Shown: one piece after another, positions 62,377 to 62,535 of the stretch
How positions within the stretch are numbered: position 1 is the first letter of the stretch
Layout of the letters: every line of letters starts with the position of its first letter
Origin: Escherichia coli
GTDB lineage: Bacteria > Pseudomonadota > Gammaproteobacteria > Enterobacterales > Enterobacteriaceae
Length of the DNA: 64,000 bases
Direction: 5' to 3' (one strand)
Assembly: GCF_003334815.1 (NCBI RefSeq)
Contig: NZ_QOWO01000006.1
Translations under genes and position numbers: made by a program
The notes under the pieces: model-generated
What the model was told of the DNA's origin: nothing
The model's database searches: none
What the model saw: only the letters and a program-made list of their open reading frames with translations

Positions 62377-62535
62377 GTGAAAGATATTTTATTTTCTTCC
62401 GGCGTTGGTTTTGGTATTGGTGCTTTGTTTACAATCGTGCGCTTGCCTATTCCTGTACCAAATGTATTACCGGGTATATTATCCATTGTGTTTATGTATG
62501 TCGGATATCTGGTGGTGAAATACTTTATGCCATGA
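62377..62535 (+). CDS. Candidate 52-aa hydrophobic small protein between xapB and xapR (XapX/DUF1427-like; GTG start)
   Basis: Uninterrupted frame (V)KDILFSSGVGFGIGALFTIVRLPIPVPNVLPGILSIVFMYVGYLVVKYFMP, two predicted TM helices, AAAGG 8 nt upstream of the GTG; below the 60-aa track cutoff; family assignment is from memory. Confidence 0.5.
   Translation: MKDILFSSGVGFGIGALFTIVRLPIPVPNVLPGILSIVFMYVGYLVVKYFMP

What the first reader, a model, noticed from the sequence alone, without database searches (positions are those of the whole stretch)
62377..62535. Unlisted 52-codon hydrophobic ORF between xapB and xapR
The 250-bp xapB-xapR spacer contains an uninterrupted frame encoding a two-helix hydrophobic peptide with glycine-rich GxxxG-like spacing (GVGFGIGALF) and a plausible RBS. 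It falls below the ORF-track length cutoff. It resembles what I recall as the XapX/DUF1427 small-protein family found next to xanthosine phosphorylase genes; its function is unknown and it could be an accessory subunit or regulator of the XapB permease.
Basis: partly seen in the sequence, partly recalled or inferred. Interest (0 to 1): 0.4.

Follow-up and report, generated by a model that had tools for sequence, protein, structure and literature searches.

The report
XapX: small membrane-protein gene after xapB
The 52-codon frame between xapB and xapR is a real, strongly conserved gene for a two-helix membrane protein of the known XapX family; automatic RefSeq annotation lists it, the curated E. 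coli K-12 record does not, and its function has never been tested.

Summary
Window 62377-62535 (+) is an open 52-codon frame with a GTG start and an AAGG ribosome-binding site 7 nt upstream.

- **Family:** it scores 64 bits against NCBIfam TIGR03510 (XapX domain; cutoff 27.8). RefSeq's pipeline annotates it as 'DUF1427 family protein' (WP_000651752.1) in about 4,000 E. coli genomes. The curated NC_000913.3 record has no gene there.
- **Coding evidence:** in 18 orthologues from three enterobacterial families the frame is always 52 codons. Changes fall mainly at third positions (dN/dS 0.05-0.2, like xapB and xapR), while the flanking spacers diverge freely.
- **Structure:** AlphaFold predicts a helical hairpin with a conserved Pro-rich loop (pLDDT 89).
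- **Context:** the gene always follows xapB, even where deoC separates it from xapR. Distant XapX-domain paralogues sit beside other nucleoside genes (nupC, deoD, deoCABD, nucleoside hydrolases) in Aeromonas, Vibrionaceae, Citrobacter and a haloarchaeon.

I conclude that it is the fourth gene of the xanthosine cassette. It probably acts as a membrane accessory in nucleoside uptake or cleavage. That role is inferred, and no study of its expression or function was found. The gene and family are already known, so interest is modest.

The parts
62377..62535 (+). xapX coding sequence: 52 codons, GTG start, TGA stop. It encodes a two-helix hydrophobic protein.
   Evidence: ORF listing. TIGR03510 at 64.2 bits. 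PGAP CDS WP_000651752.1 at the same coordinates in K-12 assemblies. dN/dS 0.05-0.21. 52 codons in 18 of 18 orthologues. AlphaFold helices 2-20 and 31-50, pLDDT 88.8.
62366..62369 (+). Shine-Dalgarno-like AAGG, 7 nt upstream of the GTG start of xapX.
   Evidence: Sequence. A purine-rich AAGG/AGGAG/GGAG motif sits at the same distance in most of the orthologues.
62333..62365 (+). Terminator-like hairpin (9-bp stem, 5-nt loop) plus TTTTATGATA, between the xapB stop and the xapX ribosome-binding site.
   Evidence: Terminator scan. Predicted RNA fold (z-score only -1.1). A hairpin plus T-run is kept, with sequence changes, in the stem in Salmonella, Citrobacter and Enterobacter. Function not tested.
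62536..62575 (+). 40-nt spacer between the xapX stop and the xapR start. Only the xapR Shine-Dalgarno (GGAG, 62563-62566) is conserved.
   Evidence: Alignment A3. No terminator-like site here, and only a weak promoter-like match (9/12), whose start site would fall after the Shine-Dalgarno. This suggests that xapX and xapR are co-transcribed (inference).
61068..62324 (+). xapB, xanthosine:H+ symporter (NHS/MFS family), immediately upstream of xapX.
   Evidence: ORF. RefSeq annotation. It lies directly upstream of xapX in all orthologous loci.
60175..61008 (+). xapA, xanthosine phosphorylase, first gene of the cassette.
   Evidence: ORF. Annotation.
62576..63460 (+). xapR, LysR-type activator of xapAB, 40 nt downstream of xapX.
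   Evidence: Annotation. The start MERVYR is conserved in most orthologues.
59162..59926 (-). yfeN, a Tsx/OmpK-family outer-membrane channel gene divergent from xapA. A YfeN-like gene is also in the Citrobacter nucleoside cluster that carries a XapX paralogue.
   Evidence: ORF. Annotation. Channel_Tsx neighbours. NF008574 hit.

Best explanation
This is a genuine protein-coding gene, best called xapX. It is the fourth gene of the xanthosine-utilisation cassette xapA-xapB-xapX-xapR.

**Shown or predicted by computation.** The product is a 52-residue protein predicted to fold as a hairpin of two hydrophobic helices (residues 2-20 and 31-50). The helices are joined by a conserved basic, proline-rich turn (R-L-P-I-P-V-P-N). 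Helix 1 carries a small-residue GxxxG face and helix 2 a G..G...GY face. The fold is an AlphaFold prediction and has not been solved experimentally. The protein, not the RNA or DNA, is under purifying selection. It belongs to the XapX-domain family (TIGR03510).

**Inferred.** It inserts into the inner membrane and serves as a small accessory component of nucleoside uptake and catabolism. The most likely mechanism is binding to the permease (XapB here), to stabilise or tune it or to couple it to the nucleoside-cleaving enzyme. This would resemble the way other small bacterial membrane proteins act on larger transporters.

**Expression in E. coli (inferred).** It probably comes from transcripts that read through the hairpin after xapB, and it probably shares its mRNA with xapR, because no terminator and no room for a promoter lie between them.
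For: - **Coding:** the frame is 52 codons in 18 of 18 orthologues from Enterobacteriaceae, Yersiniaceae (Chimaeribacter) and Budviciaceae, and invariant residues use 3-5 different synonymous codons.
- **Selection:** pS is 0.5-0.84 against pN 0.06-0.18, giving dN/dS 0.05-0.21, similar to xapB and xapR. Within E. coli, 7 of 7 changes are synonymous and the protein is identical across lineages whose XapA, XapB and XapR differ.
- **Family:** TIGR03510 at 64.2 bits against a cutoff of 27.8. There are 77 cluster representatives at 50% identity, sharing the motif G-x3-G..F..[KR]LP[IV]PAP..G..G..G.
- **Structure:** AlphaFold2 pLDDT 88.8, a helix-loop-helix.
- **Link to the catabolic genes rather than to xapR:** xapX always directly follows xapB. 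In Limnobaculum and Pragia, deoC lies between xapX and xapR, about 20 nt after the xapX stop. In E. coli, xapB, xapX and xapR are present or absent together, in 4078, 4078 and 4089 of 5426 genomes.
- **Paralogues at 33-50% identity sit in other nucleoside clusters:**
  - Aeromonas: nupC-X-deoCABD.
  - Salinivibrio and Photobacterium: X-deoD.
  - Citrobacter: X-DeoR/ribokinase-Tsx-nucleoside hydrolase-nupC.
  - An Enterobacterales group: nupC-yjdM-X-deaminase-like-deoB-deoD.
  - The haloarchaeon Halomarina: ECF transporter-nucleoside hydrolase-X, with a 4-nt overlap.
  - All of these pass the TIGR03510 cutoff.
- **Enrichment (rough estimate):** if 2-5% of genes lie within 5 kb of such enzymes (my own assumed background rate), finding 6 of 13 sampled contexts by chance has p between 1e-7 and 2e-5.
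Against: - There is no direct evidence of translation or function. The one ribosome-profiling supplement that could be searched has no entry for this locus, and the xap genes are not induced under standard conditions (background knowledge, not checked here).
- The partner is not identified. The associated transporters belong to three unrelated classes (NHS/MFS, CNT, ECF). In Vibrionaceae the neighbour is deoD with no transporter gene adjacent. This argues against a specific transporter-binding role as the common denominator.
- Many family members are in non-nucleoside contexts: FMN reductase, hydrolase/amidohydrolase in Rhizobium and Agrobacterium, Thermoanaerobacter redox genes, and phages.
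- A terminator-like hairpin lies directly upstream of xapX in Enterobacteriaceae, so expression from the xapA promoter may be low.
- The context sample was opportunistic, not systematic.
Confidence: 0.5

Rival explanations
1. XapX works with the regulator rather than with transport. It is co-transcribed with xapR and modulates XapR activity or the induction switch, for example by relaying the state of the membrane or the permease to the LysR-type activator.
For: Only 40 nt separate xapX from xapR, with no terminator-like site and no conserved promoter between them. The Citrobacter paralogue also lies directly upstream of a regulator gene, a DeoR-HTH/ribokinase fusion.
Against: In Budviciaceae, deoC separates xapX from xapR while xapX stays next to xapB. 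Paralogues in Aeromonas, Vibrionaceae and Halomarina have no regulator adjacent. To my knowledge no small membrane protein is known to control a LysR-type regulator (not searched here).
Confidence: 0.15
2. XapX-domain proteins are generic small membrane proteins with no nucleoside-specific role, for example a membrane-stress or lipid-packing module. The xap position would then be a historical accident carried along with the cassette.
For: The family occurs in heterogeneous contexts, including phages, redox genes and amidohydrolase clusters. The associated transporters and enzymes belong to unrelated families.
Against: At least five or six different nucleoside cluster types, in Bacteria and in an archaeon, carry a member. 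Junctions are often tight or overlapping. The rough chance estimate is p<=2e-5. Strong purifying selection has held the gene in this exact position across three enterobacterial families.
Confidence: 0.2
3. The ORF matters only as a translated leader or upstream ORF. Its translation would set xapR expression by translational coupling or by opposing termination, and the peptide itself would be irrelevant.
For: It lies between a terminator-like hairpin and xapR, with a short gap to the xapR start.
Against: The amino-acid sequence is conserved while synonymous sites are near saturation. Length is invariant. The protein belongs to a family found in many loci without xapR. A confident two-helix fold is predicted.
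Confidence: 0.04
4. It is a chance ORF or a decaying relic that is not expressed.
For: It is absent from the curated K-12 annotation. No translation evidence was found. Truncated variants exist in some E. coli and Shigella entries.
Against: All the conservation results above apply. The ribosome-binding site and start position are conserved. The HMM score is well above the family cutoff.
Confidence: 0.02

Closest known systems
XapX domain family (NCBIfam/TIGRFAMs TIGR03510)
   Same: A full-length match to the 49-position model at 64.2 bits. It has the same size, the same two-helix layout and the same LPxPxP turn as the other members. The family is named after this very locus.
   Different: Nothing structural differs. 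The family has no assigned function, so membership says what the gene is called, not what it does.
Pfam DUF1427 (PF07235)
   Same: The ~96-aa rhizobial DUF1427 proteins carry a XapX domain at their N-terminus (TIGR03510 at 68.9 bits). PGAP uses the name 'DUF1427 family protein' for the E. coli ORF.
   Different: The 84-position Pfam model does not match E. coli XapX, even at E<=10, whereas it matches the Rhizobium protein at 2.9e-38. E. coli XapX lacks the C-terminal extension. The rhizobial genes sit between hydrolase and amidohydrolase genes, not nucleoside genes.
Small inner-membrane proteins that act on transporters or membrane enzymes (AcrZ-AcrB, KdpF-KdpABC, MgtS-MgtA, CydX-CydAB, SgrT-PtsG); recalled from general knowledge, not tested here
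   Same: It is a very small hydrophobic protein encoded in or next to the operon of a membrane transporter, and it is conserved with that operon.
   Different: As I recall, most of those are single-helix proteins of fewer than 50 residues, and none is a sequence homologue. XapX has two helices. No interaction with XapB has been shown, and paralogues accompany unrelated transporter classes or none.
F-type ATPase subunit c; a resemblance recalled from memory only
   Same: Both are two-helix hairpins with a glycine-rich (GxGxGxG) first helix that allows tight helix packing.
   Different: There is no sequence or fold match to any solved structure. XapX has no conserved carboxylate in helix 2, and only the GxxxG pair (G11, G15) is conserved family-wide.

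Membership tests
XapX domain (TIGR03510) | HMM score above the curated whole-protein cutoff of 27.8 bits. | tested here: met
   64.2 bits, E 5.8e-18, residues 4-50 on model positions 2-48 of 49.
XapX domain (TIGR03510) | A hydrophobic unit of about 50 residues with two helices and a conserved [KR]-L-P-x-P-x-P turn. | tested here: met
   AlphaFold helices 2-20 and 31-50 with loop 21-30. In the 37-sequence family alignment, G11, G15, F18, P24, P26 and P28 are at least 90% conserved and G43 is invariant.
XapX domain (TIGR03510) | Location in the xanthosine (xap) gene neighbourhood, which gave the family its name. | tested here: met
   The order xapA-xapB-xapX-xapR is found in the window and in every orthologous locus.
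Pfam DUF1427 (PF07235) | A match to the Pfam-A profile. | tested here: not met
   No Pfam hit even at E<=10. The model matches the 96-aa Rhizobium protein at 2.9e-38. Precomputed hits for short paralogues are only 'weak' or 'faint'.
Small-protein accessory subunit of a transporter (functional class) | Physical association with the transporter and an effect on its activity or stability. | not testable with these tools
   Only gene adjacency is available. No multimer prediction or experiment was possible.
Expressed small protein of E. coli K-12 | Direct evidence of translation (tagged protein, ribosome profiling or mass spectrometry). | tested here: inconclusive
   It is not in the one searchable ribosome-profiling supplement, and other supplements are not held. 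It is listed as an annotated transmembrane smORF ('xapX domain protein') in the supplement of PMC11188072, which is a genomic catalogue, not expression evidence.

The most novel reading that the evidence does not exclude
XapX-domain proteins may be a widespread but unstudied membrane component of nucleoside utilisation, found in Bacteria and haloarchaea and independent of the transporter class (NHS, CNT or ECF). Such a protein could tether or regulate the nucleoside-cleaving enzyme (XapA, DeoD or a nucleoside hydrolase) at the membrane, or handle the released base. If so, the 'minimal' three-gene xapABR circuit used for quantitative modelling would have a fourth player.
Probability: 0.3. Interest if true: 0.55.

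Novelty: already known. Interest (0 to 1): 0.3.

Why it matters
The xap system is treated in the literature as a three-gene circuit, and it has been modelled quantitatively on that basis (PMC7205307). A conserved fourth gene sits inside it and is missing from the curated K-12 reference. It may have been overlooked because at 52 codons it falls just above the 50-residue limit those small-protein studies use (abstracts).

Adding it to the K-12 and EcoCyc annotation is a small but concrete correction. The recurring association of XapX-domain genes with nucleoside transporters, phosphorylases and hydrolases in several unrelated cluster types gives a testable lead to the function of a family that currently has none. 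It also matters for knockouts: ΔxapAB or ΔxapABR constructs may or may not remove xapX.

Tried and rejected
- **Pfam-A:** scanning the E. coli protein gave no hit.
- **Solved structures:** a PDB sequence-profile search gave only a chance hit at E 0.47, and a Foldseek search of the AlphaFold model against the PDB gave nothing.
- **RNA families:** an Rfam scan of 62200-62700 gave only chance-level hits, so there is no known RNA element.
- **Sigma-54 promoter:** a published genomic SELEX peak falls in the xapB-xapR spacer (PMC8743547), but I found no GG-N10-GC consensus there. I reject it as an explanation.
- **Sigma-70 promoters:** the scan gave one 10/12 match inside the 3' end of xapB and one 9/12 match just before xapR, about what shuffled sequence gives. 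The promoter for xapX and xapR therefore remains unplaced.
- **Embedded promoter or RNA element:** per-codon synonymous variation shows no clearly constrained block inside xapX that would mark one.
- **Literature:** 'XapX' and 'DUF1427' return no functional study. The ribosome-profiling supplements were empty for this locus or not held. The original xap papers (PMC177358, PMC93943) are not held.
- **Not run:** I considered a fused XapB-linker-XapX AlphaFold run. The tool returns only pLDDT and pTM, which could not show an interface.

Full report
**1. The observation**

The window around the finding is the E. coli xap locus. It contains yfeN (59162-59926, minus strand), xapA (60175-61008), xapB (61068-62324) and xapR (62576-63460). 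In the 251-nt gap between xapB and xapR, the ORF listing reports the frame 62377-62535 (+). It has 52 codons and a GTG start. The product is MKDILFSSGVGFGIGALFTIVRLPIPVPNVLPGILSIVFMYVGYLVVKYFMP.

The sequence shows AAGG at 62366-62369, 7 nt before the GTG. An in-frame TAA lies two codons upstream, so the start is well defined.

**2. Is it annotated?**

The curated reference NC_000913.3 has no feature between xapR (b2405) and xapB (b2406). RefSeq's automatic pipeline does call this ORF, as 'DUF1427 family protein' WP_000651752.1. It does so in another MG1655 assembly and in about 4,000 complete E. coli genomes.

The exact protein is in UniRef and NCBI as a multispecies Enterobacteriaceae entry, seen on at least 1,000 contigs. 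It also appears as 'xapX domain protein, TRANSMEMBRANE' in the supplementary smORF catalogue of PMC11188072. 'Unlisted' is therefore true only for the curated K-12 record.

**3. Family**

The protein hits NCBIfam TIGR03510 (XapX domain) at E 5.8e-18, 64.2 bits against a curated cutoff of 27.8, and the match covers essentially the whole model.

Pfam-A gives no hit, even at E<=10. The Pfam DUF1427 model (PF07235, 84 positions) is built on the ~96-aa rhizobial proteins. It matches one of those at 2.9e-38, and that protein also carries a XapX domain. The E. coli protein is therefore a member of TIGR03510 but fails the Pfam DUF1427 test. 'DUF1427' is only the pipeline's label.

**4. Is it a real coding gene?**

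I collected orthologous loci from:
- Salmonella, Enterobacter, Citrobacter, Entomohabitans, Pseudocitrobacter and Phytobacter;
- Chimaeribacter (Yersiniaceae);
- Limnobaculum and Pragia (Budviciaceae);
- two metagenomes.

| Test | Result |
|---|---|
| Frame length | Open and exactly 52 codons in all 18 sequences |
| Upstream spacer | 34 to about 105 nt |
| Downstream spacer | 39 to about 880 nt |
| Synonymous codon use | Invariant residues (S7, S8, G9, R22, P24, P26, P28, G33, V38, G43) use 3-5 different codons |
| Nei-Gojobori estimates | pS 0.5-0.84, pN 0.06-0.18, dN/dS 0.05-0.21, in the range of xapB and xapR |
| Codon-position bias | 6/2/25 for E. coli versus Salmonella |

Between divergent E. 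coli lineages, 7 of 7 (or 2 of 2) substitutions in the ORF are synonymous third-position changes. The protein accession stays identical there, while XapA, XapB and XapR differ and the upstream spacer is 11.5% diverged. Selection acts on the peptide. This excludes a chance ORF and makes a 'translation-only' leader very unlikely.

**5. The protein**

A profile search of 1.84 billion cluster representatives found 77 families of relatives, mostly 48-95 aa. The shared signature is a first helix with G-x3-G and a conserved F, then a turn [KR]-L-P-[IV]-P-A-P, then a second helix G..G..G.Y.

AlphaFold2, run on a 37-sequence alignment, gives a helix (2-20), a loop (21-30) and a helix (31-50) with mean pLDDT 88.8. 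Nothing in the PDB resembles it by sequence or by fold.

**6. Local anatomy and expression (inference)**

A terminator-like hairpin follows the xapB stop directly (62333-62355, 9 pairs, then TTTTATGATA). The xapX ribosome-binding site comes right after it. A comparable hairpin plus T-run is kept, with sequence changes, in Salmonella, Citrobacter and Enterobacter, but without a T-run in Chimaeribacter.

The 40 nt between xapX and xapR are not conserved except for the xapR Shine-Dalgarno. They contain no terminator and leave no room for a promoter plus leader. I therefore infer that xapX and xapR share a transcript, and that this transcript must pass through the hairpin. It would start either at the xapA promoter or at an unmapped promoter in the 3' end of xapB, where there is a 10/12 match at 62253-62282.

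This part is not shown. The literature describes xapR as constitutive and does not mention xapX (PMC7205307). A reported sigma-54 holoenzyme SELEX peak in this spacer (PMC8743547) has no consensus site behind it.

**7. Context and function**

The orthologue is always the gene directly after xapB. In Chimaeribacter the whole four-gene block sits between different flanking genes (metG and AraC/rha), so it moves as a unit. In Budviciaceae the order is xapA-xapB-xapX-deoC-xapR, and deoC starts about 20 nt after the xapX stop. xapX therefore stays with the catabolic genes, not with xapR. In E. coli, xapB, xapX and xapR are present in 4078, 4078 and 4089 of 5426 complete genomes, so most of the roughly 25% of genomes without xapX lack the whole locus.

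XapX-domain paralogues that are only 33-50% identical, and that all pass the TIGR03510 cutoff, lie in other nucleoside clusters:

| Organism | Gene order (X = XapX-domain gene) |
|---|---|
| Aeromonas caviae | nupC-X-deoC-deoA-deoB-deoD |
| Salinivibrio, Photobacterium | X-deoD |
| Citrobacter | X-DeoR/ribokinase-YfeN-like channel-nucleoside hydrolase-nupC |
| Uncultured Enterobacterales group | nupC-yjdM-X-adenosine-deaminase-like-deoB-deoD |
| Halomarina (haloarchaeon) | ECF transporter S/T/A-nucleoside hydrolase-X, with a 4-nt overlap |
| Natrinema | X convergent with a 5'-deoxyadenosine deaminase gene |

Other members are in unrelated settings:
- FMN reductase and DUF1934;
- a phage-like block and two phage genomes;
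- Thermoanaerobacter redox genes;
- an MFS transporter on a Yersinia plasmid;
- hydrolase/amidohydrolase genes in Rhizobium and Agrobacterium.

The sample was opportunistic. Even so, about 6 nucleoside-linked contexts out of about 13 is far more than the 2-5% background rate I assumed would give (p between 1e-7 and 2e-5).

The common denominator is a nucleoside-cleaving enzyme, usually together with a nucleoside transporter from one of three unrelated classes. This supports a role in nucleoside utilisation. It weakens the idea of a XapB-specific subunit, and it does not reveal the mechanism.

**8. Verdict**

- **Observation:** confirmed.
correct.
- **Status:** the gene and its family are already known to the databases, and the family is named after this locus. 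The novelty class is therefore 'already known'.
- **What remains open:** expression and function.
- **What this analysis adds:** a quantitative case that the gene encodes a protein under purifying selection; the distinction between TIGR03510 and Pfam DUF1427; the point that the curated K-12 record lacks the gene; and the recurring link between XapX-domain genes and nucleoside catabolism across unrelated clusters, which is a testable lead.
- **Interest:** modest, 0.3.

Noticed in passing
L044 4965-5156 (Aeromonas caviae); L046 5001-5171 (Salinivibrio); L051 6001-6171 (Photobacterium); L036 5001-5159 (Citrobacter); L040 5001-5237; L045 4965-5159 (Halomarina): XapX-domain small proteins recur beside nucleoside phosphorylase, hydrolase and transporter genes (nupC, deoCABD, deoD, IU-nucleoside hydrolase, ECF transporter) in cluster types unrelated to xap, including one in a haloarchaeon.
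   Followed up: partly
window 60175-63460 (whole xap locus): The xap locus is accessory in E. coli. xapB, xapX and xapR are each found in only about 4,080 of 5,426 complete genomes, and nearly always together.
   Followed up: partly
window 62576-63460 (xapR); L018 3288-4856: Several E. coli genomes carry an IS1 element inside xapR (hits H96-H100). One strain has an IS1/Tn3-associated resistance region directly upstream of xapR, where only the last 46 nt of the xapB-xapX-xapR query region match.
   Followed up: no
window 63569-63694 (-): An RtT RNA match (Rfam RF00391, 47.3 bits against a gathering score of 45) lies between xapR and the lysV/valY tRNA cluster. PGAP annotates it as 'RtT sRNA, processed from tyrT transcript', although it sits beside Lys and Val tRNAs here.
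   Followed up: no
window 62333-62365 (+): The terminator-like hairpin between xapB and xapX is kept as a structure, with sequence changes in the stem, across E. coli lineages, Salmonella, Citrobacter and Enterobacter. It lies only about 11 nt before the xapX ribosome-binding site, so any xapX mRNA must read through it.
   Followed up: partly
window 62325-62575 (xapB-xapR spacer): A published genomic SELEX study lists an RNA polymerase-sigma54 binding peak in this spacer (PMC8743547). No sigma-54 -24/-12 consensus is present.
   Followed up: yes
phage records KC292029.1 46369-46518 and KP144388.1 75919-76077: XapX-family-like small ORFs occur in Haloarcula californiae tailed virus 1 (and in Haloarcula virus HCTV-16), where they are annotated as hypothetical proteins, and in Geobacillus virus E3, where the ORF is unannotated.
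   Followed up: no
L049 5001-5291; L050 5001-5288: In a Rhizobium plasmid and an Agrobacterium Ti plasmid, the 96-aa DUF1427 protein (a XapX domain plus a C-terminal tail) overlaps the start of a 660-aa amidohydrolase gene. The same cluster also holds a LysR regulator, a ring-cleaving dioxygenase and a DoxX gene. This is a different, conserved association.
   Followed up: no
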